From assembly GCA_019695305.1 (NCBI GenBank), contig JAIBAG010000005.1:3361-67360 (forward strand): 64,000 nucleotides of DNA, in the 5' to 3' direction. The position numbers were made by a program, and so were the translations under genes. Each line of letters starts with the position of its first letter. The stretch's first letter is position 1. Below the pieces are notes generated by a model. It was not told the DNA's origin, did not search any database, and was given only the letters and a program-made list of their open reading frames with translations. Shown one piece after another: positions 4,629 to 56,990 of this stretch. This DNA comes from a bacterium (GTDB taxonomy: Bacteria; UBA10199; JAIBAG01).

Positions 4629-5477
4629 ATGCACGGTTTTTTCCTCATCGATAAACCAGCCGGAATTTCGTCTAACAAGGCGCTTAGCCAAATTAAAAGA
4701 AATCTTAAAATTAAAAAAATGGGCCACACGGGCACGCTCGATCCTTTTGCCCAAGGTTTACTGGTGGCTGCCTCGGGCGAGGCCACAAAGTTTATATATT
4801 ATCTGGAGGCAGCTGATAAATGCTATGAAGCAAAGCTTCAATTAGGTGTTAAAACTGATACTTTAGATAGTTATGGACAAATACTTGAAAAACAAGATAT
4901 TTCTAAAATAGATAAAGATAAAATTGAGTCTGTTTTTAATCAGTTTTTAGGCCCTCAACTACAAATACCACCGATGTTTTCGGCTAAAAAAGTGGATGGA
5001 GATAAACTGTATGACTTAGCCCGGAAGGGAATCGAAGTGGAGCGGAAGGCATGTTCCATTGAGATTAAAAAACTAGTGTTATTGGATCAGCAGTCCGATT
5101 CAATGAGCTTTGAAGTCGTCTGTTCCAAAGGAACCTATGTGCGGGTGTTGGGCGAAGATATTGCGGGGGCCTTAGGTAACTTGGGACACTTAAGTTATCT
5201 TAAACGGATATCGAGTGACGGGTTTAATGTGAAGGATGCCTTGGCGCCGGAAAAACTTAGCGGGATGAGTATTCCACTTGAGAAACTTCACCATTACCTC
5301 AAATATCCATTATTCACTTTGGATGAGACTAGTATCACAGCGTTAAAGGCAGGAAAGTTTGTAGCGCACTCTCAAGCAGGAGGTTTATACTCCGTTCTAA
5401 ATGACAAGGAAGAGTTCTGTGGCTTGGTTAAAAGCGAAGGCGCGCTTTTAAAACCAGAGCGCATGGCAATGGTGTGA
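4629..5477 (+). CDS. truB: tRNA pseudouridine(55) synthase TruB
   Basis: 282 aa with the HGFFLIDKPAGISS...GHTGTLDP catalytic-Asp motif. Conserved position after rbfA. Confidence 0.93.
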   Translation: MHGFFLIDKPAGISSNKALSQIKRNLKIKKMGHTGTLDPFAQGLLVAASGEATKFIYYLEAADKCYEAKLQLGVKTDTLDSYGQILEKQDISKIDKDKIESVFNQFLGPQLQIPPMFSAKKVDGDKLYDLARKGIEVERKACSIEIKKLVLLDQQSDSMSFEVVCSKGTYVRVLGEDIAGALGNLGHLSYLKRISSDGFNVKDALAPEKLSGMSIPLEKLHHYLKYPLFTLDETSITALKAGKFVAHSQAGGLYSVLNDKEEFCGLVKSEGALLKPERMAMV

Positions 5478-5478
5478 A

Positions 5479-5572
5479 GAGTAACCCACCCTGTCCCTCC
5501 CTTAATCTAAGGGAGGGAACGTTCTTGGCCCCTCCCACTTAAATTAAGGGGGAGGACGGGAGGGGGTTACTC
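5479..5572. repeat. nested-palindrome MITE/REP-like element, copy 1
   Basis: GAGTAACCCACCCTGTCC + hairpin (CCCTCCC-TTAATCTAA-GGGAGGG) + spacer + second hairpin (CCCCTCC...GGGGGAGG) + GGGAGGGGGTTACTC. The termini are inverted repeats. The family recurs at 6795, 37954, 39194 and 50606. Its 3' terminal GTTAC provides the TAA stop of the convergent minus-strand gene. Confidence 0.85.
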
Positions 5573-6739
5573 CCCGTACAGCAAATACTTCTCACTACTT
5601 TTCACAAACGCTTTTGTCTCCGTCTCCCAACTTTGATACAGCTTGTTCAAATCACCTTTTTCTTCCACGCATTCCCGGTAAGCCGAACTTCCGGTTAGAA
5701 GATCAATGGCCGGAATCTCATCAACAAATTCATAAGGCTTGGCTCTCCATTTAAAATCGTTCGGGTAAAGATCTTTCAGTGTTTTAAGCAATACACAGGA
5801 GAGATAAAGCGGGATAATTTTGTTTCGATCGGTAATGTGAATCTGCAAGCCGCCACAATTCTGCATGGCTGCCTTTTGAAAAGTAGGGCGATAATAAATG
5901 GGACGGAGATGAAAGCCATCGAAACGATAATTATTTAAGGTCTCTAGCCAACGATACGGATCGATAAAGGGAGCGCCGATAAATTCAAAGGGTTTTGTTG
6001 TGCCGCGGCCTTCTGATAAGTCTGTTGCTTCTACCAAACACTGGCCGGGATAAACAAGGGCAGCTTCAAGTGTTGGCATGTTGGGTGACGGAAGGACCCA
6101 GGGAAGGCCGGTGTCGTCAAAATACATCGTCCTTTTCCACCCCTTCATTTTAATGATTTGCAACTTACATCCAATATTAAATTCTGTATTAAAAAGAAGA
6201 GCTAGCTCGCCAACTGTCATGCCGTGGCGATTAGGAAGAGGGTAATAGCCAACAAATGATTCGAACCCTTTTTGAACAAGAGGCCCTTCAACATCAACAC
6301 CATTAATGGGATTAGGACGATCGAGAACGATCACTTCTACGCCGGTTTTAGCGGCTGTTTGCATGCAAAAAGCGATGGTATAAATAAAGGTATAGTAACG
6401 CGATCCAATATCTTGCAAATCGCACACCAGCACATCGATATTTTTAAAATCATTTTCGGTAGGTTTTAACGATTCGAGTGTTGGTCCATACAGGCTTTTT
6501 ACCGGAAGACCGGTTTGGGAGTCTACCGACGAATCCACATGATCCATATCCTGGGCTTCGCCACGGATACCGTGCTCGGGGCCAAAAAGTTGGGTGATAT
6601 TGATTTTATTTTTGAGAAGTAAATCTACAATGTGGTTGAATTGACTATCCACACTGGCTGGGTGAGCCAACACACCCACGCGTTTCTTTTTAAGTTTGGG
6701 TAAGAAAGATGAAAGTTGACCTAATCCTGTTTTAACCAT
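5567..6739 (-). CDS. DUF1343 family protein (NamZ-like exo-beta-N-acetylmuramidase)
   Basis: 390 aa. N-terminal KRVGVLAHPASVD...LFGPEHGIRG matches the conserved DUF1343/NamZ signature as I recall it. Confidence 0.6.
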   Translation of the reverse strand: MVKTGLGQLSSFLPKLKKKRVGVLAHPASVDSQFNHIVDLLLKNKINITQLFGPEHGIRGEAQDMDHVDSSVDSQTGLPVKSLYGPTLESLKPTENDFKNIDVLVCDLQDIGSRYYTFIYTIAFCMQTAAKTGVEVIVLDRPNPINGVDVEGPLVQKGFESFVGYYPLPNRHGMTVGELALLFNTEFNIGCKLQIIKMKGWKRTMYFDDTGLPWVLPSPNMPTLEAALVYPGQCLVEATDLSEGRGTTKPFEFIGAPFIDPYRWLETLNNYRFDGFHLRPIYYRPTFQKAAMQNCGGLQIHITDRNKIIPLYLSCVLLKTLKDLYPNDFKWRAKPYEFVDEIPAIDLLTGSSAYRECVEEKGDLNKLYQSWETETKAFVKSSEKYLLYGE

Positions 6740-6794: not shown

Positions 6795-6912
6795 GAGTAA
6801 CCCCCTCCTGACCTCCCCCTTACTCTAAGGGGGAGGGACGTGTGCTTCTAATAATATCTAGTTATTAGTTCTCCTCCCTTAAGGTAAGGGAGGAGACAGA
6901 GGTGGGTTACTC
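6795..6912. repeat. nested-palindrome MITE/REP-like element, copy 2 (with extra internal palindrome)
   Basis: GAGTAACCCCCTCCTGACC...CCCCCTTACTCTAAGGGGGAGGG, a central CTAATAA-N-TTATTAG palindrome, CTCCTCCCTTAAGGTAAGGGAGGAG, and a GGTGGGTTACTC terminus. It lies in the intergenic region before the acyl-CoA dehydrogenase gene. Confidence 0.85.
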
Positions 6913-6930
6913 TTCGTTTGGGAAAGTTTT

Positions 6931-8061
6931 ATGACAACTTATTTTACTGAAACCCACAACCAACTCAAAACTACCATTCATAAATTTGTTGAAAAAGAAA
7001 TTTTGCCTCATATTCACACTTGGGAGGAAAAAAATGAATTTCCCAAGGAACTTTATAAAAAAGTAGGCGACTTGGGTTTTTTAGGTTTGGGATTTGATCC
7101 GGCTTTTGGTGGGGTAGAATCGGATATTTTTCACACGATGGTGTTGGTGACTGAAATGATGCGTTCTACCTCGCAGGGTTTGCTGGCGTCTCTTTTTTCT
7201 CATTCTATTGCCATTCCGCCTATTGATAAATTAGGAACCGACGAACAAAAAAATAAATTTATGAAACCGGTGTTGGCTGGAAATAAAATTGCCGCACTAG
7301 CCATTACCGAGCCTAATGCCGGTTCGGATGTGGCACATATTCAAACTAAGGCTAAACAACAGGGCAATCATTATCTTGTTAATGGATCCAAGATGTTTAT
7401 CACCAGTGGTTGCCGCGCAGATTTTTATACTACGGCCGTGCGCACTGGTGGAGAAGGGCATGAAGGGATTTCGCTCTTGTTGATTGAACGCAACACACCG
7501 GGTCTTGCGGTGGAAAAGAAATTGGACAAGATGGGCTGGTGGGCATCCGATACAGCGCTCATTAGTTTTAACGACTGTAAAGTGCCCGTAGATAATCTCC
7601 TCGGCGAAGAAAATAAAGGGTTTTATGGCATCATGGCTAATTTTGAAAGTGAGCGCTTGTTTTTAGCGGGGATGGCAGTGGGGAGTGCTCAAGTTGCCTA
7701 TGAAAAAGCTTTGGAGTACGCTCAAACACGCGAGGCGTTTGGTGGTGCGCTCATAAAAAAACAAGTGATCCGTCATAAACTGGCCGAGATGACAACCCTT
7801 CTTACTGTTTCTCGAGAATATTTATACTCCGTTTGCCAAAAGAAAAAAGACGGCGAACCCATTCTTAAAGAAGCAGCTATGGCTAAAAACTTTTGTGTGA
7901 CCTCCTGTCAAACGGTAGTGGATGAAGCCGTCCAGATTTTTGGAGGGATGGGCTATATGCGCGAAAACCCCGTGGAACGTCTTTACAGGGATATGCGCCT
8001 GCTTTCTATTGGAGGCGGCACGCATGAAGTGATGAATGAAATCATTGCTAAGTTTTTATAG
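6931..8061 (+). CDS. acyl-CoA dehydrogenase
   Basis: 376 aa with acyl-CoA dehydrogenase N, middle and C-terminal signatures (...FITSG..., QIFGGMGYMRENPVERLYRDMRL). Confidence 0.88.
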   Translation: MTTYFTETHNQLKTTIHKFVEKEILPHIHTWEEKNEFPKELYKKVGDLGFLGLGFDPAFGGVESDIFHTMVLVTEMMRSTSQGLLASLFSHSIAIPPIDKLGTDEQKNKFMKPVLAGNKIAALAITEPNAGSDVAHIQTKAKQQGNHYLVNGSKMFITSGCRADFYTTAVRTGGEGHEGISLLLIERNTPGLAVEKKLDKMGWWASDTALISFNDCKVPVDNLLGEENKGFYGIMANFESERLFLAGMAVGSAQVAYEKALEYAQTREAFGGALIKKQVIRHKLAEMTTLLTVSREYLYSVCQKKKDGEPILKEAAMAKNFCVTSCQTVVDEAVQIFGGMGYMRENPVERLYRDMRLLSIGGGTHEVMNEIIAKFL

Positions 8062-8199: not shown

Positions 8200-11100
8200 A
8201 TGGGGAAAGTATCTGTCGAGAAACATCTTTTGGTATTAACTGATCAGGCCGCTAAGGAAGACGTATCGTCAAATCCCCACAAGTCTACTCATCATGATCT
8301 TTCATTACACTGGTTTAAAAAGGTCCAAGAACGTTACGATAAAAAACTAAAACCACTAGATGAGTTTGTTGATGATTCCAAAAAAATAATACTGACAAGA
8401 TCTAAAAGTATGGGGAGTGCATTTGTACCTTCCTTTTTAGCACGCAATCCAAGTTTGGATGTTTCTTTTATTTCGCAAGATCCTATTCCTATAACTCATT
8501 TGCGGTTGGGAGCTGAAGGTAAAACCCATGACCTTGATAATGCAACAGAAACGCTAAAGGACAAACTGAAAGTTGTAGAAAGCAAACTTCGTATGTTGAG
8601 TATGGCGCAAGCCGAGTTGCGAAAAAAAATACCCGAATCTGAAATGAGAGAAGCAGAGAGTGACGATTTTAAAAATAAATTAAGTCTAGCAGCTAGCACT
8701 TTGAAGGGTACGCCCTCATGGGTGAGTAGTGAGGGTAATAAAGAATATGCCTTGGATGCCTACAATGATATTCGTCAGGCTGTGAGTTTATATCAGGATC
8801 ATATCCGGGATGTACGCCAGAAAGTGGGAGAGTACGAAAAACAATTACGCGGTTTAGATGAACAGTATACGGCTCTCATGCGCGATAAAATTAATTTAGA
8901 GATTGATAACCTTGTTTTGATGGCTAAAGCGGGTCAACCCGGTGTGCAAGAACGATTGGAAACTTTGCCATTATGGCTGGCAAATTTGCCAGCCGAATGG
9001 ATTCCTCAGCGTATGCGGGTTGCTGTTGCGGATGTGCGTCAGTCGCTTGTTGCTAAATCTCCCGACTCTCTTTTGCTGGGCGCTCTCGCTAAAAAAGATT
9101 CCACCACAGCCATTGATCAGGCTGCTTGGCTTTATGAGCATAACAATCCACAGCTAAAAAGTGTTCGCGAGTTTGACGAATCGGTGCGCAAATTGGGTAA
9201 TATTCACGATGATATCAATTACCTCGCAATTTTAAAGTCTGTACCAGGCCAAAAACCCGAAAATATTGCGGCTTTAAGCAAGTTATCCCGCGAACAATTA
9301 CAGGAGTTGTATGCTATTTCTCTTAGTCAATATGGGAATGTGCAACCAAATTATGAGCTTATTGTAAAAAAATATCCTCAACTTCAAAGTGCTGCGCAAA
9401 CTGTTATAAAGCAATTTATTGAGAAGGGTTATTATTGCGTTTTTTTGGGGGGATATCCAAATGCTCAGCAACTTAATGATCCCAAGTATTGGGCTTTTGT
9501 ATGCTTTGAAAATGATAATGATTTTTGGACGGTGTCACGTCTTAATAATTGGTTAGTTAAAAACGGTGAAACAGAGGGGAGTACTTATGTGTCAATGGTA
9601 TTAGACTATAGTAGCATAACTCTTTTTGAAACAGACGATGTAAAAAAACTTTTAGGTACCCAAGAGCCCGAAGCCGAATTGATGAATAACGTTTTAACTC
9701 AAGTTTGGCCTATGGAGGAGTTGAGAAAAGCCGCTCAGGAATTGTGTGGTTGGCAAGAAATTTTAGGTGCTATTACCGGTGCATTGCAAAACCCGCAAAC
9801 TTACAAAACATCACTGGGAATTGAGGGGCTACGGCACGCTATACGTTGTTTAGAATCGGTTTCTCGAGATGCTATACAAACTGTACGTGAGTTTTTTAGG
9901 GAACATGCAGAAGAAGTAGCAAAGTTGGAATCTCTGTTTATTCCTGCTGTTGGTGGAAGCAAGGCCGAACAAACGCTTGCTTATACCCGCAATATGATTT
10001 TGGGTTTAAGGGCTATTTTGGGTGATGGTACCCATAAGCAAAGTGGATCGCTCGCTCAATTAAAAATTTATGCCGACGAAGCCATGCCCGATGATTTTTG
10101 GAAGTTTTCTCAAAGCTTTTTAGTGCCTACATTGTTATCGGTTGCCACATCGTGTGTCCTGATGCGCATGGCAGGTGTAGGCCTCGCCCGGCTTGGTGTG
10201 TGGTTGACAGGCGGAGAAGACTTACTGCTGGCAAGCGGAAGTGCCGAACTTTTTTTAACTACACAGGCATTGTCGGGGTTTGTACAAACAGCAACTCAGG
10301 AAGTTGTTAGATATGAATATGATGAAAAATTGAATAAATCAACTCATTGTGCCGGTAGTATTTATAAATGGGTGCATGGGGAAAAAAGTTTATTGGAAGC
10401 TTTGGATGATTTTTCTGAATCCTGGCTTGAGGCGTCGGTTGCCTCCGCAGGTACCAGCATTGGTGGCAAAGCCTGGGGAGGGGTTGCAGGAATTTTACAA
10501 GAATCAAAACAACCGCTTTTAAAAGCTTTAGGCAAGGCCTCGGATGTTTTTGCCAGAATTTTTGATGATGTAGATGATCAGTTAGGCGAACTCTCTTCAA
10601 AATTCTACAAAAAACCGCTGATAGATAGTGTTGGAAAGGAAATGTGGGAGGAGAGCGGTTCGTATTTTATGCAGGTTAATATCGATCCTCTCATGCCTGA
10701 TTGGTTACCTGTATCCGCCAGTACATTATATGATATGGCAGCTGGAGGTCACAGTAGTAAGGCTTTTGATTCTCAAATTCAAGTGATTAGATCAGAACCT
10801 ATAATTGCTTCCAATATTTTTTCTGATTTGCAGGCTATCGATTTTGAAACCGCCGCTTATTTACAATGGGCAAAGGATAACAAAGTTGTTGTTCGTTATG
10901 TAGAAGGCACACAGGTTGTGTTTAACTTGGCGAGTCAGGAAATTTTAATTGGCAATAATTCTCCAGAAGCACAAACCCCTGCTTTGTTAGTGAGCACCTT
11001 GGTGCACGAAATCCGTCACCGACAGGTGCAAGAAGCATTATCCAAGCAAGAAACACCGGCTACAATGACACGTGAGGAATTTATAGCTCTCAATTTAGAG

Positions 11101-37170: not shown

Positions 37171-37953
37171 ATGAGTTTTGAAACTTTATTAGTAGAAATA
37201 AACGAAGGCATTGCCACGGTTCAGGTAAATCGTCCCAAGGCGCTTAATGCTATCAACCGCCAAGTACTTATTGATTTAGGCAACGCTTTTAAACAGCTGG
37301 AAGGTGATTCAAATGTAAAAGGTATCATCTTAACCGGTAACGGCGATAAAGCTTTTGTGGCTGGTGCCGATATTGTGAGTATGCAGAATATGACGGTTCT
37401 TGAAGCAACAGAATTTGGCAAGTTAGGTCATGACACCATGAAGACTATCGAAAACTGCGGTAAGCCCGTGGTTGCTGCTGTTAACGGTTTTGCTTTAGGT
37501 GGTGGTTTGGAACTGGCTCTCTCGTGCGATTTTATCTATGCCTCAAGCACCGCTAAATTGGGTTTACCTGAAGTTAACTTGGGAATTTTCCCTGGCTTTG
37601 GTGGTACTCAGCGTTTGTCGCGCTTGATCGGTAAAAACCGTGCTAAGGAACTCGTTTACACCGCTAAAATCATCTCGGCAGAAGAGGGGCTTAATATTGG
37701 TATTGTAAACAAAGTATCCGCTCCTGAAACTTTATTGGCCGATGTTAAAGCCACCTTATCTACAATTTTAACTAAAGGTTTAGTGGCTATCCGCTTAGCT
37801 AAGAAAGTGATGAATGAAGGAACGGATTTAGATTTAGCCAGTGGTTTGGCGATGGAAGAAAATACTTTCCCGTTAACATTCTCCACCGACGATAAAAAAG
37901 AAGGTGTAGCGGCGTTTATTGAAAAGAGAAAAGCTAATTTTACGGGAAAGTAA
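37171..37953 (+). CDS. enoyl-CoA hydratase (crotonase)
   Basis: 260 aa with crotonase fold motifs (AAVNGFALGGGLELALSCD, ...GIFPGFGGTQRL). Confidence 0.9.
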   Translation: MSFETLLVEINEGIATVQVNRPKALNAINRQVLIDLGNAFKQLEGDSNVKGIILTGNGDKAFVAGADIVSMQNMTVLEATEFGKLGHDTMKTIENCGKPVVAAVNGFALGGGLELALSCDFIYASSTAKLGLPEVNLGIFPGFGGTQRLSRLIGKNRAKELVYTAKIISAEEGLNIGIVNKVSAPETLLADVKATLSTILTKGLVAIRLAKKVMNEGTDLDLASGLAMEENTFPLTFSTDDKKEGVAAFIEKRKANFTGK

Positions 37954-38041
37954 GAATAACCCACCCTGTCCCTCCTTTAATCTAAGGGAGGGGACCTTCT
38001 TACTCTCCCCCTTAAGTTAAGGGGGAGTGGGAGGGGGTTAC
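37954..38041. repeat. nested-palindrome MITE/REP-like element, copy 3
   Basis: GAATAACCCACCCTGTCCCTCCTTTAATCTAAGGGAGGGGAC...CTCCCCCTTAAGTTAAGGGGGAG...GGGGGTTAC. Begins directly after the crotonase TAA. Confidence 0.85.
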
Positions 38042-38058: not shown

Positions 38059-39198
38059 ATGAACTTTGAACTTTCTGAAGAACAAACAATGATTCAAAAA
38101 ATGGCACGCGATTTTGCGCAAAAAGAACTCGCGCCTTTAGCTGCCGAACGCGATGAAAAAGCGGAATTCCCTACATCTTCACTTCCTAAAATGGCGGAGC
38201 TGGGTTTGATGGGCATGATGGTTCCTGAACAATGGGGCGGAGCAGGGCTCGATATGCTCTCATATGTATTAGCTTTAGAAGAAATTTCGGCCGCTTGTGC
38301 CTCTACCGGTGTTACCATGTCGGTGAATAACTCACTCTACTGCGGACCCATCACACGTTTTGCCAATGACGAACAAAAGAAAAAGTATTTAACACCCTTT
38401 GCTCAAGGTCAAAAACTGGGAGCGTATTGCTTGTCGGAACCAGGTACCGGTTCGGATGCAGCTAACCAGCAAACAACCGCTGTTGATAAAGGCAGCCATT
38501 ATCTTTTAAATGGTACCAAAAACTTTATCACCAACGGGCCTCATGCAGATGCCATGGTGGTGTTTGCCATGACTGATAAATCTAAAAAGCATAAAGGCAT
38601 TTCGGCTTTTATTGTAGATAAAAACTTTAAGGGTTTCTCGGTAGGTAAAGTTGAAAAGAAACTTGGTATTCGTGCTTCGGCTACCTCGTCCATCGTTTTA
38701 GAAAACTGCGAAGTTCCTAAAGATTGCCTCTTGGGTGAAGTTGGCCAGGGTTTTACTATTGCCATGAATACGCTCGATTACGGTCGCATTGGTATTGCCA
38801 CCCAGGCGTTGGGTATTTCGCGCGCGGCTATTGAAGCGGCGGTAAAATACGCCAAAGAACGCGAAGCCTTTGGGCAATCCATTTCTAATTTTCAGGCCAT
38901 CCAATGGATGATTGCCGATATGACCACACGTTTTGAAGCCTCGCGCATGCTCACTTATAAAGCGGCCGAGCTTAAGCAGGCCGGTAAACCTGCCAGTGTA
39001 GAAGCGTGTCAGGCCAAACTTTTTGCCTCGGAATCGTCAAACTTCATCACCAATAAAGCCGTGCAGATACACGGTGGTTATGGCTATTGCCGTGAGTATC
39101 CCGTAGAACGTCTCTTGCGTGATGCTCGTATTACCGAAATTTACGAGGGAACTTCCGAAATTCAGCGTTTGGTGATCGCAAAGAATACGTTAAAGTAA
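38059..39198 (+). CDS. short-chain (butyryl-CoA-type) acyl-CoA dehydrogenase
   Basis: 379 aa with acyl-CoA dehydrogenase motifs (YCLSEPGTGSDAA, ...QIHGGYGYCREYPVERLLRDARI). The stop TAA lies inside the terminal GTAACC of repeat copy 4. Confidence 0.9.
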   Translation: MNFELSEEQTMIQKMARDFAQKELAPLAAERDEKAEFPTSSLPKMAELGLMGMMVPEQWGGAGLDMLSYVLALEEISAACASTGVTMSVNNSLYCGPITRFANDEQKKKYLTPFAQGQKLGAYCLSEPGTGSDAANQQTTAVDKGSHYLLNGTKNFITNGPHADAMVVFAMTDKSKKHKGISAFIVDKNFKGFSVGKVEKKLGIRASATSSIVLENCEVPKDCLLGEVGQGFTIAMNTLDYGRIGIATQALGISRAAIEAAVKYAKEREAFGQSISNFQAIQWMIADMTTRFEASRMLTYKAAELKQAGKPASVEACQAKLFASESSNFITNKAVQIHGGYGYCREYPVERLLRDARITEIYEGTSEIQRLVIAKNTLK

Positions 39199-39287
39199 CC
39201 CCCTCCCGTCCTCCCCCTTAGCCTAAGGGGGAGGGGCTAAGAACGCTCCCTCCCTTAAGCTAAGGGGGGGGTGGGGTGGGTTACTCT
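39194..39287. repeat. nested-palindrome MITE/REP-like element, copy 4
   Basis: AGTAACCCCCTCCCGTCCTCCCCCTTAGCCTAAGGGGGAGGGG...CTCCCTCCCTTAAGCTAAGGGGGGGTGGGGTGGGTTACTC. It supplies the stop codon of the upstream acyl-CoA dehydrogenase gene. It also creates a spurious in-frame N-terminal extension (MGWVTLL) of the downstream ORF. Confidence 0.85.
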
Positions 39288-39291
39288 TCTT

Positions 39292-40944
39292 ATGACCAAG
39301 AACCTTAAAGAATGGGAAGAGGGGACTTTAAAATCCTTTCTCGCTAAAGCGCCGGAGTCACAGAAAGAGTTTACCACTCTTTCGTCCGAACCCATCGAGC
39401 GTTTATACACGGCCGATCAAGTAGGCCAGAATCATCAAGAAGACATTGGTTTTCCCGGCGAATATCCTTTTACGCGCGGTGTTTATCCCACCATGTATCG
39501 CGGTAAATTATGGACCATGCGGCAGTTTGCCGGGTTTGGAACTCCCGAAGATACCAACACGCGTTTCCACTATTTGTTATCTCAGGGGCAAACGGGTCTC
39601 TCAACCGCTTTCCATTTTCCTACACTCATGGGTTATGACAGCGACTCGCCCCGTTCGCGCGGTGAAGTGGGCGTGTGCGGCGTTGCAGTTGATTCTCTGG
39701 CCGATATGGAAATTCTTTTTAAAGGAATTCCACTGGAAAAAGTAACGGTATCCATGACAATCAATGGCCCGGCCAGCATTCTTTTAGCCTTTTATCTGGC
39801 CAATGCCGAGAAACAAAAATGTGATCTTAAAAAAGTGGGCGGCACCATACAGAACGATGTTTTAAAAGAATATATTGCTCAAAATTCATATTTGGTTCCA
39901 CCGGATCCTGCCATGCGTATAGTGGTGGACATGATCGAATATTGCTCTCAGCATGTGCCCAAATGGAATCCCATTTCTATCTCCGGTTATCATATCCGCG
40001 AAGCAGGATCTACTGCTGTTCAGGAGTTAGCCTTTACCATTGCTGATGGTGTGGCTTACGTGGATGCTTGCATCAAACGCGGGTTAGATGTGGATAGCTT
40101 TGCGCCGCGTCTCTCGTACTTTTTTAATGCACACATGGATTTCTTTGAAGAAGTGGCCAAGTATCGTGCAGCCCGTCGTTTATGGGCACGCCTCATGAAA
40201 GAACGTTTTGGTGCTAAAAAAGCGGAATCCATGAAATGCCGCTTCCACGTTCAAACCGCGGGTTGTAGTTTAACCGCTCAACAACCCGAAAATAATATTA
40301 TCCGTACCACGTTGCAGGCTCTCTCGGCCGTTTTGGGTGGCTGCCAATCGCTTCATACTAATTCCATGGATGAAACATTGGCATTACCTACCGAGAAAGC
40401 CGTGCAGATTGCTTTAAGAACTCAACAAGTCATCGCGTTTGAATCTGGCGTGACCAACACCATTGATCCTTTGGCCGGTTCTTATTTTGTCGAAGCCTTG
40501 ACCGATAAAATGGAAAAAGAAGCCATGGCCTACATCGAAAAAATCGATAGTTTGGGCGGCATGGTAGAGGCGATTAAAAAAGGGTTTCCCCAGATGGAAA
40601 TTGTTTTGGCCAGCCACAAGTATCAAAATCAGCTGGAGAAAAAGGAAAAAATTGTAGTGGGGGTGAATGAATTTATTACCGATGAAAAACCGAATACTGA
40701 TTTGTTAAAGGTAGATTCCGAGGCAGTGACCAAAAAACAGACGGAACGCTTGAATGCTTTAAAAGCGAAACGCGACAGCGAAAAAGTGAATGCTGGTTTA
40801 GCTGCTTTAAAAGCTTCTGCTTCGTCCAAAACCAATATTTTCCCCGATTTACTGGCCTGTGCTCATGCTTATTGTACTGTGGAAGAAATTTCGAACGTGT
40901 TGCGGGGCGTTTTTGGCGAGTATCACGACCCCGGTATATACTGA
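39292..40944 (+). CDS. B12-dependent acyl-CoA mutase, large (substrate-binding TIM-barrel) subunit; ICM-like (Gln at MutB-Arg207 position)
   Basis: FTRGVYPTMYRGKLWTMRQFAGFGT...QNDVLKEYIAQNSYLVPP aligns to the MutB block QNDILKEFMVRNTYIYPP. The carboxylate-binding Arg is replaced by Gln. The subunit split of about 550 + 133 aa matches IcmA/IcmB-type mutases. I take the start at MTKNLKEW. Confidence 0.8.
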   Translation: MTKNLKEWEEGTLKSFLAKAPESQKEFTTLSSEPIERLYTADQVGQNHQEDIGFPGEYPFTRGVYPTMYRGKLWTMRQFAGFGTPEDTNTRFHYLLSQGQTGLSTAFHFPTLMGYDSDSPRSRGEVGVCGVAVDSLADMEILFKGIPLEKVTVSMTINGPASILLAFYLANAEKQKCDLKKVGGTIQNDVLKEYIAQNSYLVPPDPAMRIVVDMIEYCSQHVPKWNPISISGYHIREAGSTAVQELAFTIADGVAYVDACIKRGLDVDSFAPRLSYFFNAHMDFFEEVAKYRAARRLWARLMKERFGAKKAESMKCRFHVQTAGCSLTAQQPENNIIRTTLQALSAVLGGCQSLHTNSMDETLALPTEKAVQIALRTQQVIAFESGVTNTIDPLAGSYFVEALTDKMEKEAMAYIEKIDSLGGMVEAIKKGFPQMEIVLASHKYQNQLEKKEKIVVGVNEFITDEKPNTDLLKVDSEAVTKKQTERLNALKAKRDSEKVNAGLAALKASASSKTNIFPDLLACAHAYCTVEEISNVLRGVFGEYHDPGIY

Positions 40945-49051: not shown

Positions 49052-50149
49052 ATGGATCCTTTTTTACAGTCAATAGAACATAAAATTGATAATGCAATTA
49101 GGCTTACCACCGATGATGCCTTAAAGCTTTATGAAACCAATGATTTAGTAGCTTTAGGCAAACTGGCCAATAAAGTACGCGAAAAAAAACACGGCTCTAA
49201 AACCTATTATATTGTGAACAAGCATATCGATTATTCCAATGTGTGCGTTCTTTCCTGCAAATTTTGCGCTTTTTACCGCCGTAAAGGTGAAGAGGGCAGT
49301 TTTGAGTATTCCATCCAAGACATTGTAAATAAGGTAAAATCGGGCGTTCCTAAAGGGATTACAGAAGTCCATATTGTGGGTGGTTTTCATCCCACGCACC
49401 CTTGGGAATTTTATACGGGCATGGTGCAGGCTATTAAAAAGGAAGCGCCGCATGTGCATGTAAAGGCTTTTACAGCTGCCGAAATTCGCTATTTTTCCAA
49501 ACGCTTTAAAAAAACAGAAGAACAGGTATTAAAAGAACTGATGGTTGCAGGCCTTGATTCGATGCCTGGTGGTGGTGCCGAAATTTTTGATTGGGAAGTA
49601 CGCAAAGAAATTTGCGGGCCCAAGGGGCCGGCTGAGCAATGGATTGATACGCATCGTTTAGCGCACAAGATGGGATTAAGAAGTAATGCTACAATGCTAT
49701 ATGGTCATATAGAAAATTTAAGACATCGCGTAAATCACATGGAAACTGTACGTACCTTACAGGATGAAACGGGCGGTTTTTTGTCGTTTATTCCTTTGTC
49801 TTTTAACCCCAAAGATACCGAATACGAAAGCCGTGGTTATACCAGCGGCATGGATGATTTAAAAACCTTGGCTGTGGCTCGCCTCTTTATGGATAATATC
49901 CGCCATATTAAAGCCTATTGGATTATGTCCGGTTTAGAATCCGCACAACTCGCCCAATATTTTGGTGCGGATGATTTGCATGGTACCGTGATGGAAGAAA
50001 ATATCACACACATGGCCGGCGGCATTGCCCCCGAAGACATGCCTGATTATCAATTACGCAATCTTATTTTTGAATCGGGCCGTACTCCTGTAGAACGTGA
50101 TTCGCTGTATAACGAACTGCGTACTTTTACACCTTCTTTAGTAGCTTAA
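49052..50149 (+). CDS. radical SAM enzyme of the CofH/MqnC/MqnE family (futalosine menaquinone pathway)
   Basis: 365 aa with CxxxCxxC (CKFCAF) and mqnC/mqnE-type conservation. Confidence 0.8.
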   Translation: MDPFLQSIEHKIDNAIRLTTDDALKLYETNDLVALGKLANKVREKKHGSKTYYIVNKHIDYSNVCVLSCKFCAFYRRKGEEGSFEYSIQDIVNKVKSGVPKGITEVHIVGGFHPTHPWEFYTGMVQAIKKEAPHVHVKAFTAAEIRYFSKRFKKTEEQVLKELMVAGLDSMPGGGAEIFDWEVRKEICGPKGPAEQWIDTHRLAHKMGLRSNATMLYGHIENLRHRVNHMETVRTLQDETGGFLSFIPLSFNPKDTEYESRGYTSGMDDLKTLAVARLFMDNIRHIKAYWIMSGLESAQLAQYFGADDLHGTVMEENITHMAGGIAPEDMPDYQLRNLIFESGRTPVERDSLYNELRTFTPSLVA

Positions 50150-50887
50150 TTCCACTTCACCAATAATCCCGTGACATTTTGTATGGGTGGCAACGATAGC
50201 ATGGGTGGTTTTGTTACTCATCAGACGTTCCCATTCGTTAGCAATTTTTTGAATAGAAATACCCACCACGCCGTAAGCTAATTGCGGGCAGTTGAAGATA
50301 TGTGCGGTGTGGGTTTTATTTTCAAACTTCATTTTAAGATCTGCGAGCGATAGCTCAAAATCCCAATCGCGTTTATCATTTTTACCAGGGCAAAAGGAGG
50401 GCTCATCACAATCGATAGGGCATACCCAGGTGGCGTAACTGATGGCGCATACGCCTGAATCAAAAGTTTTTTGGAAGGGGAGATTAAGATCGGTTTCAAA
50501 GTTTTTGATTTGAGTTTTAATATTTTCTTGTTCTGCTAATTTGAGAAAAAGCTGAAATAGAACATGCGGGGCGGTGTGATCGGGGATTAAGATATCAAAA
50601 GAACCTACCCCACCTGGCCTCCCCTTACAAAGGGGAGGAACGTTTTTTTTCCCTCCTTTGTAAGGAGGGGTTAGGGAAGGTAGAGAGCTTAAAAAACCGG
50701 CATACGTGTTTACAATTTGCTTTACTTCCGGATGTTCTTTTGCGGCCCAACCGCCAAGCACTTCATCTATATAATAGATGTTATTAAAATGAAGAAGTCC
50801 CTCGTTTTGGGCACGTTTTAGTTTGGTGATGTAATCGGAGGAGAGTTTGTGGGAACCTAAGACGTAGATGTTACGAATAGTGGTCAT
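50138..50887 (-). CDS. hypothetical Cys-rich protein co-transcribed with gltBD, carrying an in-frame MITE/REP-like element insertion
   Basis: 249-aa ORF. Its start overlaps the gltD stop by 4 nt. Residues about 68 to 95 (TPPYKGGKKNVPPLCKGRPGGVG) are encoded by the palindromic element at 50606..50684. The C-terminal part has the metal-binding-like CPIDCDEPSFC. Confidence 0.55.
   Translation of the reverse strand: MTTIRNIYVLGSHKLSSDYITKLKRAQNEGLLHFNNIYYIDEVLGGWAAKEHPEVKQIVNTYAGFLSSLPSLTPPYKGGKKNVPPLCKGRPGGVGSFDILIPDHTAPHVLFQLFLKLAEQENIKTQIKNFETDLNLPFQKTFDSGVCAISYATWVCPIDCDEPSFCPGKNDKRDWDFELSLADLKMKFENKTHTAHIFNCPQLAYGVVGISIQKIANEWERLMSNKTTHAIVATHTKCHGIIGEVELSY
50606..50684. repeat. MITE/REP-like element copy 5, degenerate termini, inserted in frame in a CDS
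   Basis: CTACCCCACCTGGCCTCCCC-TTACAAA-GGGGAGGAACG-T8-CCCTCCTTTGTAAGGAGGGG-TTAGGGAAGG. The termini read CTACC...GGTTAGG instead of GTAAC...GTTAC, so no stop is introduced. Confidence 0.75.
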
Positions 50888-52317
50888 CCCCGTAATTCCG
50901 AATACCCCATCAAATGCTCATCAATAGCTTTGGCACACTGGCGGCCTTCGGCAATGGCCCAAACAATCAGCGATTGACCGCGGCGCATGTCACCAGCAGT
51001 AAAGACACCTTTTACGCTCGTCATCTTGTTTTTATCGGCTTTTACATTGCCGCGTTCGTCGATTTCGAGTTTGAGATCGGTTAAAAGATTCTTTTTATCG
51101 GGGCCCACAAAACCCATGGCTAAAAAGACATAATCGGCCGGTAAGCTAAATTCGCTGCCCGGGATTTCTTTAAAGCTGGTTTTGCCATTGGCATCTTGCG
51201 TCCATTCAATTTTTACAGCGTTAAGTTTTTTAACACCGTTTGCATCACCTTCAAAATTTTTGGTGAGGATGGCAAATTCACGCACGCCACCTTCGGCGTG
51301 GGCCGTGGACACACGGTAAATCACCGGCCATTGTGGCCAGGGGTTTTTAGCATCGCGTGTTTCGGGAGGACGGCTTAAAAGTTCAATCTGATGAATGCTT
51401 TTAGCCCCCTGACGGTGAGCAGTACCCAAACAATCGGCACCGGTATCACCACCACCGATGATAATCACATTTTTATCTTTTACATTGATGGCATCTTTAA
51501 CTTCCATGCCGGCATTAAGACGGTTCTGGCGAGTTAAATATTCCATCGCAAAATGAATGTTTTTAAACTCACGGCCGGGGATGGGGAGATCACGAGGGAT
51601 GGTTGATCCACCGCACAAGGCAACAGCATCAAAATCTTTTTTAAGTTGGTCGGCGGTGATGTCTACACCTACATTCACGCTGGTCTTAAAGGTAACGCCT
51701 TCGGCTGTCATCTGTTCCATACGCGTATCAATACGGTATTTTTCCATTTTAAAATCAGGGATACCATAACGGAGGAGGCCACCGATTTTATCATCACGTT
51801 CAAAAACGGTAACGCTATGACCGGCACGCGCTAATTCCTGCGCACAAGCAAGTCCTGCAGGGCCGCTACCTACTACAGCCACTTTTTTGCCCGTTTTACT
51901 TTTTGGAGGCAGCGGTTTTACCCAGCCTTCTTTAAAAGCATGGTCGATAATATTAAATTCGAGATATTTAATGGTAACAGGTGGCTCATGTATACCCAGC
52001 ACGCACGAACCTTCGCAGGGAGCGGGGCAGAGGAGACCGGTAAATTCCGGAAAATTATTGGTGGCATGCAGTTCATCAATGGCATCTTTCCATTGATTTT
52101 TGTACACCATGTCGTTCCAATTGGGGATTAAGTTTCCTAAGGGGCAGCCCTGATGGCAAAAGGGCACGCCACAATCCATACAACGGGCGCCTTGTTTCTT
52201 GATTTCTTCTTCGGGATACTCGAGATAGAGTTCCTTATAATCTTTTAAACGTTCCGGAATAGCGCGCTCGGGGTAGGAGGTGCGTTTATATTCCATGAAG
52301 CCAGTTGGTTTACCCAT
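50884..52317 (-). CDS. gltD: glutamate synthase small (beta) subunit
   Basis: 477 aa with N-terminal 4Fe-4S Cys clusters and the FAD/NADPH dinucleotide motif [14 protein letters not shown]. Confidence 0.92.
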
Positions 52318-55300: not shown

Positions 55301-56902
55301 TTGCTTAAAATAAAAAAACAGTGATTGTGGTTTTTCAGATAAGACAGCCAGTGAGGTATCGGTTCCCATAGAACCCATGCCTTCCTCACCGTTCACAATC
55401 ATAGGTGTGAGTAAGATTTTAATATCTTCATCGGTGTAGCCAAACAAATTTTGCTTTTTAAGCAAAGTAGAATGGTCGGGCTGCGGATCGTGCGAAGATG
55501 CGGGTAAATCGTCTAGTGCTACTAAATGTTTTTTGAGCCATTCCCCATAAGGCTGTTTGCGCACCAACTCATTTTTAATTTCTTCGTCTTCAATAATGCG
55601 TCCTTTTACCGTGTCCACCAAAAACATACGGCCGGGTTGCAGACGTCCTTTTTTAACCACTGTTTCAGGTGCAATATCATCTAAAACACCCACTTCACTG
55701 GCTAAAATGACTAAATCATCTTTGGTTACATAAAAACGTCCGGGGCGTAATCCGTTACGATCAAGCACAGCACCAGCCATGTGACCATCGGTAAAACCGA
55801 TATAGGCGGGACCATCCCAGGGTTCCATAAGGGAAGCGTGATATTCGTAAAAATCTTTTTTATCTTGCGGCATGGTTTTATGCCCGCTCCAGGCTTCAGG
55901 AATCATCATCATGATGGCATGAGGAAGCGAATAACCGCTGTGCACCAATACTTCTAATGCATTATCAAAAATAGCCGAGTCGGAATAACCTTCGGAAACA
56001 ATGGGCAATATTTTTTCAAGTTCGTTGCCAAAGTTTTTAGATTCAAACATGGCCTCACGAGCCCGCATCCAGTTAATGTTGCCGCGTAGAGTATTAATTT
56101 CACCGTTGTGGCAAATAAAACGGAACGGTTGTGCTAATTCCCAACGTGGAAATGTATTGGTAGAAAAACGGGAGTGCACAAGCGCAATAGCCGATTGTAA
56201 AAGCGGATTGGTTAAATCTTTAAAGAATGGACGGACCTGGTGCGAGATGAGCATCCCTTTGTAAATAAAAATACGTGAAGAAAGAGAAGGAATGTACACC
56301 GAGGCTTTATCCACCAAGGTAGAATTTTTTACAGTTTTTTCAAAAGTTTTACGGATGATATAAAGCCTACGTTCAAAAGCCTCTTCAAAAGTACCAGGTA
56401 AATTAGGACCTTTGTCGCCCACGCCAATAAACACTTGTTCAAAATGAGGCATGGGTTCACGCGCTGTGGGCCCAATCATGCTATCATCAATAGGAATTTG
56501 GCGAAAACCCAACAGTGTTTGCCCGTTTTCAATCACAATGCGTTTTAGCATTTCACGGGTTTTATCGCGTTCGCTGGCTAGTTTTCCCGACAGAAAAATG
56601 AGACCAGAGGCGTATTTCCCTTTTTCGGGCAAATCGATATTGTTTTCTTTAGCTACAGCCACGTTAAGCGCATGCGGCATTTGAATAAGGATTCCGGCGC
56701 CATCACCAGTATTTTCTTCACAACCGCAGGCCCCGCGATGCTCTAAATTTTCAAGAGCAGTAAGAGCCTTGCTCACAATGTCGTGCGAGGCGATGCCTTT
56801 CATTTGCACCATTAAAGCCACACCACAGCTGTCTTTATCGAGTGAGGTATTATAAAGGCCGTCATTACTTTCGGCTATTTTGCGTCGTTCTAATTCGTTC
56901 AT
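52310..56902 (-). CDS. gltB: glutamate synthase large (alpha) subunit
   Basis: 1530 aa with an N-terminal amidotransferase (CGVALMV...), the FMN/3Fe-4S central domain and the C-terminal GXGXG domain. Overlaps gltD by 8 nt. Confidence 0.95.
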
Positions 56903-56917
56903 TTAAATACAAGTGGA

Positions 56918-56990
56918 TGGTGGGTAGTGGATAGTCAATGGAAGAAGAAAGCCTTATGCCGTCCACCATCCACCATCCACCATGCACTTT
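56918..56990. promoter_or_regulatory. inverted repeat built from the GTGGATGGTGG motif in the gltB leader
   Basis: GTGGATGGTGGGTAGTGGATAG...N...CCATCCACCATCCACCATG. The arms are complementary and could form a long hairpin. The motif is shared with the sctV upstream region. Confidence 0.55.

What the first reader, a model, noticed from the sequence alone, without database searches (positions are those of the whole stretch)
5479..5572. Family of nested-palindrome MITE/REP-like elements whose termini donate stop codons to flanking genes
Five copies share GAGTAACC(C/A)CC...CCCTCC-TTAAnnTAA-GGGAGGG...GGGTTACTC architecture at 5479, 6795, 37954, 39194 and 50606. Each has two internal hairpins and terminal inverted repeats. 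The terminal GTAAC/GTTAC carries TAA. The acyl-CoA dehydrogenase gene at 38059 and the minus-strand DUF1343 gene at 5567 both terminate inside an element terminus, and the crotonase stop abuts one. Copy 4 also creates a false N-terminal extension of the mutase ORF. This behaviour is analogous to Correia or Rickettsia palindromic elements but the sequence family appears distinct.
Basis: seen in the sequence. Interest (0 to 1): 0.7.

Follow-up and report, generated by a model that had tools for sequence, protein, structure and literature searches.

The report
Palindromic repeat family at gene ends
Five copies of a roughly 90-base, double-hairpin repeat sit at gene boundaries (and once, in frame, inside a gene) of an uncultured bacterium; they are an ordinary kind of bacterial "junk" repeat, but relatives in many phyla, probably including E. 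coli's unexplained BoxC repeats, cluster around a small nuclease gene of unknown function (DUF559/YcjD) that may be what spreads them.

Summary
Four well-kept copies (5479-5572, 6795-6913, 37954-38041, 39193-39286) and one decayed copy (50601-50687) share one directional architecture: GTAA tag, C-run, C/G hairpin, short spacer, second hairpin, G-run, TTAC. Flanks are unrelated and orientations differ, so these are independent insertions. Orthologous loci in a relative have tight, empty junctions.

The stop codons of NamZ and one acyl-CoA dehydrogenase lie in the GTAA terminus. However, orthologues stop at the same residue, so "donation" is not shown. This behaviour is already described for GTAG-tagged REPs.

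It adds about 19-26 residues as a predicted disordered loop, as Rickettsia palindromic elements do.

The family is not lineage-specific. Full-length relatives occur in Marinomonas, Cellvibrio, Photobacterium, Deinococcus and metagenomes. No RAYT transposase was seen. Instead, small DUF559 (YcjD-like, Vsr-fold) endonuclease genes are repeatedly bracketed by these units, including perfect 43-bp inverted repeats in Deinococcus and BoxC-like repeats next to E. coli ycjD.

Verdict: a new variant of the REP/BIME/BoxC kind. The DUF559 partnership is the interesting, unproven lead.

The parts
5479..5572 (+). Copy 1 (A->B orientation), 94 nt, between convergent truB and namZ
   Evidence: E 4.6e-29. The B-end TAA is the NamZ stop. 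The TruB TGA ends 1 nt before the element.
6795..6913 (-). Copy 2 (B->A on the + strand), 119 nt with a 25-nt AT-rich palindromic insert in the spacer, between divergent namZ and ACAD genes
   Evidence: E 7.6e-22. It lies 55 nt from the namZ ATG and 17 nt from the ACAD ATG.
37954..38041 (+). Copy 3, 88 nt, between crotonase and ACAD in one operon
   Evidence: E 4.3e-24. It starts directly after the crotonase TAA. The orthologous junction is empty in L022 and L043.
39193..39286 (-). Copy 4, 94 nt, between ACAD and methylmalonyl-CoA mutase
   Evidence: E 1.3e-27. The ACAD stop (39196-39198) is the TAA of the B-end GTAA. The orthologous junction in L022 is 2 nt long.
50601..50687 (+). Copy 5, degenerate, in frame inside ORF 50138-50887(-). 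It encodes about residues 69-95 (LPSLTPPYKGGKKNVPPLCKGRPGGVG).
   Evidence: E 2.2e-18. 15 homologues lack the insert. It is the only copy with an open frame. Residues 76-94 have pLDDT below 50.
4629..5477 (+). truB, stop abuts copy 1
   Evidence: Pfam TruB_N, E 3.6e-54
5567..6739 (-). namZ (DUF1343), stop codon inside the copy 1 terminus
   Evidence: Pfam NamZ_N/NamZ_C, profile matched to its last position at residue 388 of 390. Homologue C-termini.
6931..8061 (+). Acyl-CoA dehydrogenase paralogue, 17 nt downstream of copy 2
   Evidence: 36% identical to the other ACAD.
37171..37953 (+). Enoyl-CoA hydratase (crotonase), stop abuts copy 3
38059..39198 (+). Acyl-CoA dehydrogenase, stop codon inside the copy 4 terminus
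39292..40944 (+). Methylmalonyl-CoA mutase, likely true ATG start. The listed GTG at 39271 is inside copy 4.
50138..50887 (-). Conserved Cys-rich protein of unknown function (precomputed PF27252) that carries copy 5 in frame

Best explanation
The five sequences are copies of a non-autonomous, dispersed palindromic doublet, a REP/BIME/REPIN-like element of the BoxC type.

Anatomy. Each half consists of a terminal GTAA/TTAC tag, an 8-10 nt C-run (or G-run) 'guide-like' block, and a 7-11 bp hairpin with a C-rich 5' arm and a G-rich 3' arm. Two such halves face each other across a ~10-nt spacer. The two halves differ consistently (CCCACCC type against CCCCCTCCC type), so the element has polarity.

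Shown:
- The copies are independent insertions at gene boundaries of a compact genome.
- They sit exactly on or next to TAA stop codons without changing protein ends.
- Intact copies close all six reading frames.
- One old copy that lost its stop codons persists in frame as a loop in a conserved protein.
- Closely similar full-length elements occur in distant phyla.
- In those other genomes, units of the same architecture, some nearly identical in sequence, recurrently bracket small DUF559 (YcjD-like, Vsr-fold PD-(D/E)xK) endonuclease genes. One case has perfect 43-bp inverted repeats.

Inferred:
- The elements are or were mobilised in trans by a structure- and sequence-specific nuclease. The best candidate is a DUF559 protein encoded elsewhere in the genome, in the way that REPs depend on a single-copy RAYT.
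- Insertion favours (G)TAA next to the B half, which would explain the coincidence with stop codons.
- Any effect on the neighbouring genes (mRNA hairpin, ribosome stalling at the stop) would be secondary.
For: Family and structure:
- Pattern enrichment of 15 hits against 0.08 expected.
- The HMM finds exactly five copies.
- The alignment shows a directional A/B architecture.
- Stable folds on both strands.
- Hairpins are kept across 18 elements from about 8 taxa. 10 pairs show double changes against 5.9 in shuffles, 3/500.

Independent insertions:
- Flanks share no similarity and orientations are opposite.
- Empty orthologous junctions in L022/L023 and L043.
- The same junctions are occupied by other palindromes in L020, L041 and L043.

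Stop-codon link:
- Of 42 B-end matches in the window and 35 loci, a long ORF ends exactly on the TAA of GTAAC in 8. Bases upstream of GTAA are not conserved.
- Orthologue C-termini are unchanged.
- All six frames are closed in copies 1-4. One frame per strand is open only in copy 5.

In-frame copy. There is a second example in a cyanobacterial kinase gene.

Cross-phylum relatives.

DUF559 link:
- 2-3 of 35 pattern-selected loci carry DUF559 between units.
- 12 of 16 DUF559 loci have a unit within 200 nt under a strict detector. 113 kb of control loci hold only 2 places.
- Perfect 43-bp inverted repeats around DUF559 in D. psychrotolerans, inserted between paaD and paaZ.
- In the same replicons, 2 of 3 and 2 of 4 units per 50 kb bracket the DUF559 gene.
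- E. coli ycjD ends in such a hairpin and is followed by a unit present about 18 times per genome.
Against: - The host genome could not be scanned. The MAG is in neither collection, so its genome-wide copy number and whether it encodes a DUF559 or RAYT gene are unknown.
- No DUF559 gene is in the window or in about 110 kb from close relatives.
- DUF559 proteins (~117 aa) have no demonstrated transposition or homing activity. They could be cargo or a hitch-hiker of the repeats rather than their enzyme.
- The arrangement of units around DUF559 genes is not uniform. Guide blocks face outwards in Deinococcus, inwards in Sphingomonas, Sinorhizobium and L027, and run in the same direction in Sphingobium.
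- The covariation support for the hairpins is modest, because C/G runs pair almost as well when slid by one base (80% against 75%).
- The (G)TAA target idea rests on 8 coincidences. At least two of them, L004 and L013, are orthologous.
Confidence: 0.72

Rival explanations
1. Classical REPIN. The doublets are mobilised by a single-copy RAYT (REP-associated Y1 tyrosine transposase) or an IS200/IS605-type TnpA acting on single-stranded hairpins, with GTAA playing the role of the GTAG tag or cleavage site.
For: - The architecture matches an HH REP dimer or BIME: two inverted hairpins, tags outside, no target-site duplication.
- Stop codons in the tag and in-frame dimers are known for GTAG REPs.
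- A canonical GTAG REP doublet sits at the same ACAD-mutase junction in a relative, L043, so RAYT systems probably exist in this clade.
- IS608 uses TTAC as its cleavage and target site (own knowledge).
Against: - The tag is GTAA, not GTAG. Described variation affects positions 2-3 only, and mutation of position 4 abolished cleavage by one RAYT.
- The tag is separated from the hairpin by an 8-10 nt C-run, not 0-2 nt.
- No RayT homologue was found in about 400 kb around elements, and no Y1 family recurred among 105 neighbouring ORFs. Both are weak tests.
- The gene that does recur is DUF559.
Confidence: 0.17
2. Conventional MITE. This would be an internally deleted DDE-transposase insertion sequence (for example IS630/Tc1-like) with terminal inverted repeats ACCCMCC.../...GGKGGGT and a TA target-site duplication hidden in GTAAC/GTTAC.
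For: - The terminal inverted repeats are real.
- TA is self-complementary, so a TA duplication cannot be told apart from an extension of the palindrome (sequence).
Against: - No longer direct repeat flanks any copy.
- With a TA duplication at the ACAD stop, the base after the right-hand TA should be the A of the ancestral TAA, but it is C (with for the ancestral stop).
- No DDE transposase lies near any of the roughly 50 elements examined.
- The G before TA and the C after it are conserved, which a TA duplication does not explain.
Confidence: 0.06
3. Host-selected functional structure. The hairpins would be kept in place because they act as terminators, mRNA stabilisers or processing sites, or translation insulators (stops in all frames), and mobility would be irrelevant.
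For: - Very stable RNA folds on both strands.
- Three of four intergenic copies directly follow a stop codon, and all six frames are closed.
- REPs within about 15 nt of a stop are reported to affect translation of the upstream gene (own knowledge: Liang, Rudd and Deutscher 2015).
Against: - Contexts are heterogeneous: convergent, divergent, two intra-operon and one intragenic.
- No copy scores as an intrinsic terminator or promoter.
- No Rfam family matches.
- A relative has no element at the same junctions, and others carry unrelated palindromes there.
- This reading does not exclude a mobile origin.
Confidence: 0.05
4. Chance similarity or one local segmental duplication.
For: Four of the five copies lie next to acyl-CoA metabolism genes, two of them upstream of ACAD paralogues.
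Against: - Pattern enrichment of 15 hits against 0.08 expected.
- No flank similarity, opposite orientations, and ACAD paralogues only 36% identical.
- Relatives occur in other genomes.
Confidence: 0.01

Closest known systems
REP / BIME / REPIN elements (GTAG-tagged REP dimers with RAYT, e.g. E. coli, Pseudomonas, Stenotrophomonas)
   Same: - Short extragenic palindromes arranged as inverted doublets with the tag outside (HH dimers).
- Dispersed, no target duplication, mostly just 3' of genes.
- Tag supplies or overlaps stop codons.
- Occasional in-frame intragenic dimers of 20-30 aa.
- A single-copy protein gene flanked by the repeats (REPtron). Sources: PMC3733652, PMC8266576.
   Different: - The tag is GTAA, not GTAG.
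- An 8-10 nt C/G-run lies between tag and hairpin.
- The two halves are of two distinct types.
- No RAYT was found. The associated gene in relatives is a DUF559 PD-(D/E)xK nuclease, a different fold and chemistry from HUH/Y1 enzymes.
E. coli BoxC repeats (about 50-56 bp, about 22-32 copies, function unknown)
   Same: - Unit layout of hairpin (CCCCTCGCCCC/GGGGAGAGGG), then TTA, then a G-run (GGGTGAGGGG).
- Dispersed at a median of 18 places per genome.
- Adjacent to the only E. coli DUF559 gene, ycjD.
   Different: - Sequence similarity to the window copies is limited to the C/G-run architecture.
- The E. coli units seen here are single rather than tight doublets, and have no GTAA tag.
- Identification of the ycjD-adjacent unit as 'BoxC' rests on size and copy number (PMC2267715) and on memory of the original fabI/envM report.
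Rickettsia palindromic elements (RPE)
   Same: A palindromic repeat inserted in frame into a conserved protein-coding gene. It is tolerated as an extra loop (copy 5).
   Different: - Only one of five copies is intragenic.
- There is no sequence relation.
- RPEs are mostly intragenic and lineage-restricted.
IS200/IS605 family and its gene-less derivatives (PATEs)
   Same: - Subterminal hairpins.
- No inverted-repeat-dependent DDE chemistry is needed, and there is no target duplication.
- Insertion next to a specific tetranucleotide (IS608: TTAC), with guide sequences beside the hairpins (PMC8266576; own knowledge).
   Different: - No TnpA or TnpB was found.
- The element is a near-perfect inverted doublet, whereas IS200/IS605 ends are not inverted repeats of each other.
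Correia elements (Neisseria) and other DDE-type MITEs
   Same: - Size range and terminal inverted repeats.
- Location at gene boundaries, with possible effects on neighbouring gene expression.
   Different: - No demonstrable target-site duplication.
- No cognate IS.
- The nested-hairpin doublet architecture is REP-like.

Membership tests
REP/REPIN-RAYT (GTAG superfamily) | Conserved GTAG (allowed variants GYAG, GYRG, GTRG, GTMG, GTGG) 0-2 nt from the foot of the hairpin | tested here: not met
   The tag is GTAA (GAGTAAC/GTTACTC). It lies 8-10 nt from the hairpin, behind a C-run. The definition is from PMC3733652 and PMC8266576.
REP/REPIN-RAYT (GTAG superfamily) | Two REPs in inverted orientation forming a larger hairpin (REPIN / HH dimer) | tested here: met
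REP/REPIN-RAYT (GTAG superfamily) | A RAYT (Y1 HUH transposase) gene in the genome, typically flanked by the REPs | tested here: inconclusive
   No RayT homologue in the window or in about 400 kb of related loci, and none recurrent among 105 neighbouring ORFs.
REP/REPIN-RAYT (GTAG superfamily) | High copy number dispersed over the genome | not testable with these tools
   Only 64 kb of the host is available, with 5 copies at 3 loci. The MAG is absent from genome contigs and metagenome contigs.
BoxC-type / DUF559-associated palindromic units (grouping proposed here) | Unit made of a hairpin with a C-rich 5' arm and G-rich 3' arm, plus a G-run (or C-run on the other side) 2-5 nt from the stem | tested here: met
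   Window copies. The same layout occurs in Marinomonas, Cellvibrio, Deinococcus, Azospirillum, Sinorhizobium, Sphingomonas and E. coli.
BoxC-type / DUF559-associated palindromic units (grouping proposed here) | A DUF559 (PF04480) gene in the same genome, flanked by the units | not testable with these tools
In other genomes the feature is met.
DDE-type MITE | Terminal inverted repeats plus a direct target-site duplication | tested here: inconclusive
   Inverted repeats are present. No direct repeat longer than the self-complementary TA is seen. The TA model conflicts with the ACAD stop context.
DDE-type MITE | A full-length IS with the same termini | tested here: not met
   No transposase next to any element in about 50 loci. 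This holds only within the DNA sampled.
Rickettsia palindromic elements | In-frame insertion in conserved ORFs with the host protein kept intact | tested here: met
   Copy 5. Conserved residues lie on both sides, the insert is absent from 15 homologues, and it is a low-pLDDT loop. This is behaviour only; there is no sequence relation.
Intrinsic terminator | GC-rich hairpin followed by a T-tract | tested here: not met
   No copy is reported by the terminator scan.
Any Rfam RNA family | Score at or above the family's gathering threshold | tested here: not met
   No hit at gathering. Only sub-threshold generic hairpin (miRNA precursor) matches appear.

The most novel reading that the evidence does not exclude
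DUF559/YcjD-like Vsr-fold endonucleases may be the dedicated partner of a cross-phylum superfamily of C-run/G-run hairpin repeats. This would be a second, mechanistically different 'REPtron' system alongside RAYT/REP.

The superfamily includes the window's doublets, similar elements in Marinomonas, Cellvibrio, Photobacterium and Deinococcus, rhizobial units, and probably E. coli BoxC.

Under this reading, the gene with its flanking units is the autonomous form (for example the perfect 43-bp inverted repeats around DUF559 between paaD and paaZ in D. psychrotolerans). The 90-nt doublets in this window would be its gene-less, trans-mobilised derivatives, inserting next to (G)TAA.

This would give a function both to a large orphan protein family with an E. 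coli member and to BoxC repeats, which (from my own recollection) have been unexplained since 1992. I found no paper in the searchable library that makes this link.
Probability: 0.4. Interest if true: 0.8.

Novelty: new variant of a known kind. Interest (0 to 1): 0.55.

Why it matters
By themselves the five copies are ordinary small palindromic repeats at gene ends. Stop codons in the tag and in-frame copies have already been described for GTAG REPs.

Three points make the case more than routine:
- The same directional architecture, including the asymmetric pair of C-runs, is kept from an uncultured 'delta-proteobacterium-like' MAG to Gammaproteobacteria and Deinococcus.
- It lacks the GTAG/RAYT hallmarks.
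- Its relatives are tied to DUF559 nuclease genes.

If DUF559 proteins act on these hairpins, that would define a new enzyme-repeat partnership in bacterial genomes and explain E. coli BoxC and ycjD. It would be directly testable in E. coli K-12.

For annotation, the finding also flags two artefacts: false N-terminal extensions (the mutase) and element-encoded peptide inserts (the 249-aa protein).

Tried and rejected
- **Rfam.** Nothing at gathering threshold. In E-value mode only sub-threshold miRNA-like hairpin noise appeared.
- **Host genome look-ups.** Exact-protein look-ups failed. Neither the genome contigs nor the metagenome-contig scan returned the host contig, so no genome-wide count was possible.
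- **RAYT search.** phmmer with E. coli RayT and a HUH...Y regex over all ORFs of the window and loci found nothing. This is a weak test.
- **Viral contigs.** Two pattern scans gave 0 hits.
- **Literal sequence strings in the literature.** Only irrelevant hits.
- **Terminator and promoter scans.** No copy was called.
- **Covariation count on an 18-sequence alignment.** Only modest support, because homopolymeric arms pair in shifted registers.
- **'Window doublets are simple internal deletions of one DUF559 transposon.'** Considered, but not claimed as shown. The orientation of units around DUF559 genes differs between taxa.
- **TA-duplicating MITE.** Considered and judged unlikely (see rival explanations).
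- **Segmental duplication of ACAD plus element.** Rejected.

Full report
**1. The observation**

Reading the five stated positions shows the described sequences. The core hairpin pattern CCCTTAANNTAAGGG (up to 1 mismatch) matches 15 times, which is 8 hairpins counted on both strands. Dinucleotide shuffles give 0.08 expected. The longest short-range inverted repeats in the whole window are these elements.

A profile HMM of the five copies finds only them in 64 kb, with E-values from 4.6e-29 to 2.2e-18 and no partial copies. Each folds on either strand into a long hairpin or a three-way junction, at -45 to -70 kcal/mol. Plus-strand z is -5.2 to -7.6 for c1, c2, c4 and c5. Copy 3 is weaker, at z -2.4 and -2.0.

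Aligning both strands shows that the element is directional:
- A half: GAGTAA-CCCACCC-TGT-[CCCTCCC TTAnnnTAA GGGAGGG].
- Spacer: ACGTTCTTRG.
- B half: [CCCCTCCCCC TTAnnnTAA GGGGGAGG]-AC-GGGAGGGGG-TTAC.

Orientation is +, -, +, -, + for copies 1-5. Copies 1-4 are 75-88% identical to one another. Copy 5 is 47-61% identical to them.

**2. Gene context**

Pfam identifies truB, namZ (DUF1343), two acyl-CoA dehydrogenases, a crotonase and methylmalonyl-CoA mutase.
- Copy 1 fills the gap between convergent truB and namZ.
- Copy 2 lies between divergent namZ and an ACAD gene.
- Copies 3 and 4 lie between crotonase, ACAD and mutase in one operon.
- The NamZ and ACAD stop codons are the TAA of the GTAA tag. 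The crotonase and TruB stops abut elements.
- The mutase ORF's mechanical GTG start (39271) lies in copy 4. The ATG at 39292 is in frame.

The flanks of the copies share no similarity, and the ACAD paralogues are only 36% identical. The copies are therefore not a segmental duplication.

**3. Empty sites and 'donation'**

The ACAD gene's nearest relatives are MAGs labelled Deltaproteobacteria, for example GWA2_45_12 at 83% identity. The window is an NCBI MAG contig of 133 kb labelled only 'bacterium', with K1X76 locus tags. The thiolase-crotonase-ACAD-mutase synteny is conserved.

- In L022/L023 the junctions are tight: about 43 nt and 2 nt. In L043 the crotonase and ACAD genes overlap (TAATG). 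These are empty sites.
- In L020, L041 and L043 the same junctions hold different palindromes. L043 carries a canonical GTAG-tagged REP doublet.
- Crotonase ends ...GK*/GR* and ACAD ends ...LK*/...LKD* at the same position in all of them. NamZ homologues mostly end ...YLLY plus 0-2 residues, with P0141 ...YLLYGN* against the window's ...YLLYGE*.

The element therefore sits on a stop codon whose position is unchanged. 'Donation' of a new stop is not demonstrated.

Copies 1-4 carry stop codons in all three frames of both strands. Copy 5 has one open frame per strand.

**4. The in-frame copy**

Copy 5 lies inside ORF 50138-50887(-), which encodes 249 aa. Fifteen homologues of 33-47% identity align on both sides but lack about 19 residues exactly there. 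The element encodes LPSLTPPYKGGKKNVPPLCKGRPGGVG.

An AlphaFold model has mean pLDDT 81. Residues 76-94 score below 50 and lie between a confident helix and a confident strand. Copy 5 has lost the base pair that creates TTA/TAA in each loop, and it has lost the GTAA tags.

This is RPE-like behaviour. A single unit of the same family also lies in frame inside the kinase domain of a Chlorogloeopsis Ser/Thr kinase ORF (L003).

**5. Distribution**

The B-end pattern TAAGGGRGAG-N(1-7)-GGRGGGGGTTAC was derived from all four intact copies. It matched 18 loci among genomes of 185,579 species and 17 metagenome loci. Nearly all of them also carry the complementary left arm, which the pattern did not require.

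Full two-hairpin elements with the same A/B asymmetry (CCCACCC-type and GGGAGGGGG-type runs) occur in Marinomonas (including a four-copy array), Cellvibrio, a gammaproteobacterial MAG, an unclassified MAG and several metagenome contigs. There were no viral hits.

Across 42 B-end matches, a long ORF reading towards the element stops exactly on the TAA of GTAAC in 8 cases. These include GST, 3-hydroxyisobutyrate dehydrogenase-like, rod-binding, TspO and DUF559 genes. The bases upstream of GTAA are not conserved.

In the window the sequence beyond TTAC is conserved at the A end (GTTACTCTTC in three copies) but not at the B end. Together these observations suggest that the B end abuts a pre-existing (G)TAA. 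This is inference.

**6. What mobilises it**

No RayT homologue was found in the window or in about 400 kb of related loci. Among 105 ORFs neighbouring elements, the only non-housekeeping family recurring in independent loci was DUF559.

- In L027 and L038 a 122-125-aa DUF559 gene lies between two inverted units, and L034 has a fragment.
- As an independent sample, tblastn of the L027 protein against 72,556 plasmid records gave 36 records. Fourteen were fetched.
- By eye, almost all of them have units of the same architecture at one or both ends of the gene.
- With a strict generic detector, 12 of 16 DUF559 loci have a unit within 200 nt. In 113 kb of control loci there were two places, one of which is next to E. 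coli ycjD.
- In D. psychrotolerans the gene lies between paaD and paaZ and is bracketed by perfect 43-bp inverted repeats, TTACTCCTCCCCCTTGAGGGGGGAGGCTGGGAGGGGGTGAGTG. This sequence is almost identical to the Marinomonas B half.
- In 50 kb of that replicon only 3 units exist, and 2 bracket the gene. In Sphingomonas, 2 of 4 units bracket a DUF559 gene inserted between sufB and sufC.
- In Photobacterium, three full elements (E 1e-10 with the window HMM) follow the gene.
- In E. coli K-12 the ycjD stop lies in the loop of such a hairpin. About 170 nt downstream lies CCCCTCGCCCCTCTGGGGAGAGGG-TTA-GGGTGAGGGG. That unit occurs at a median of 18 places per genome in 5,426 genomes. This matches the size and copy number listed for BoxC in PMC2267715.

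DUF559 proteins belong to the YcjD family. They have a solved structure of unknown function (3hrl) and fall in the Vsr / I-Bth0305I fold group. None of the papers in the library that mention DUF559, ycjD, PF04480 or COG2852 links them to palindromic repeats.

The orientation of units relative to the gene varies between taxa. I therefore describe an association like a REPtron, not a single defined transposon.

**7. Comparison with known systems**

The element works like a REP doublet (BIME/REPIN). It is dispersed, sits mostly just 3' of genes, has its tag overlapping stop codons, and occasionally occurs in frame. All of these are described for GTAG REPs (PMC3733652).

It fails the defining GTAG-tag test: the tag is GTAA, and it is spaced from the hairpin by a C-run. 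A RAYT could not be shown. It shares its unit layout with E. coli BoxC. It is not a terminator and matches no Rfam family. A TA-duplicating MITE cannot be strictly excluded but fits poorly.

**8. Verdict**

The element is a new variant of a known kind.

Copy number and the presence of DUF559 or RAYT in this organism therefore remain unknown.

Noticed in passing
L058 (E. coli MG1655 NC_000913.3) 5030-5840, record 1351030-1351840: The single E. coli DUF559 gene, ycjD, ends with a TGA in the loop of a C/G hairpin. It is followed by a BoxC-like unit that is dispersed about 18 times per genome. This suggests a ycjD-BoxC partnership analogous to rayT-REP.
   Followed up: partly
L052 / L059 (Deinococcus psychrotolerans NZ_CP034185.1, record 298346-298805): A DUF559 gene with perfect 43-bp terminal inverted repeats is inserted cleanly between paaD and paaZ of the phenylacetate operon. 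It looks like a recently mobile unit.
   Followed up: partly
L055 / L060 (Sphingomonas parapaucimobilis NZ_CP155753.1, record 112554-112999): A DUF559 gene bracketed by near-identical units is inserted between sufB and sufC. The annotated ORF reads through the downstream unit.
   Followed up: partly
L003 7230-7285 (Chlorogloeopsis sp. ULAP02): A single unit of the same family lies in frame inside the protein kinase domain of a 755-aa Ser/Thr kinase ORF. The Pkinase match spans 279 residues for 257 profile positions.
   Followed up: partly
L043 11140-11210; L020 9895-10000 and 11140-11283; L041 9727-9804 and 10948-11000: In relatives of the host, the same crotonase/ACAD/mutase junctions carry unrelated palindromic repeats. 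L043 has a canonical GTAG-tagged REP doublet. These junctions are recurrent landing sites.
   Followed up: partly
L018 1282-2278 (Marinomonas foliarum); L005 3300-3430 and L011 5490-5600 (M. rhodophyticola); L044 888-1296 (Photobacterium): There are tandem arrays of three to four full elements or half units, unlike the solitary copies in the window.
   Followed up: no
L042 2651-2712: A symmetric single unit (C7-AT-hairpin-CA-G6) sits between dctQ and dctM in a relative of the host. A similar unit type fills the ACAD-mutase gap in L020.
   Followed up: no
window 50138-52317 and 49052-50149: The 249-aa Cys/His-rich protein (invariant C156, C160, C166, C200, C238, H239; precomputed PF27252, no hit in the Pfam copy used) overlaps by 4 nt the stop of a glutamate-synthase-small-subunit-like flavoprotein gene. 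It converges on a CofH/MqnC-like radical SAM gene. Its function is unknown.
   Followed up: no
window 56913-56980: A 19-nt inverted repeat, 89% complementary (GTGGATGGTGGGTAGTGGA / TCCACCATCCACCATCCAC), lies just upstream of the 1530-aa ORF 52310-56902(-). It is unrelated to the element family.
   Followed up: no
window 8200-16911: A very large ORF of 2903 aa lies directly downstream of the ACAD gene that follows copy 2. It was not examined.
   Followed up: no
window 1-64000: No tRNA, rRNA or any other Rfam family reaches gathering threshold anywhere in the 64 kb.
   Followed up: no
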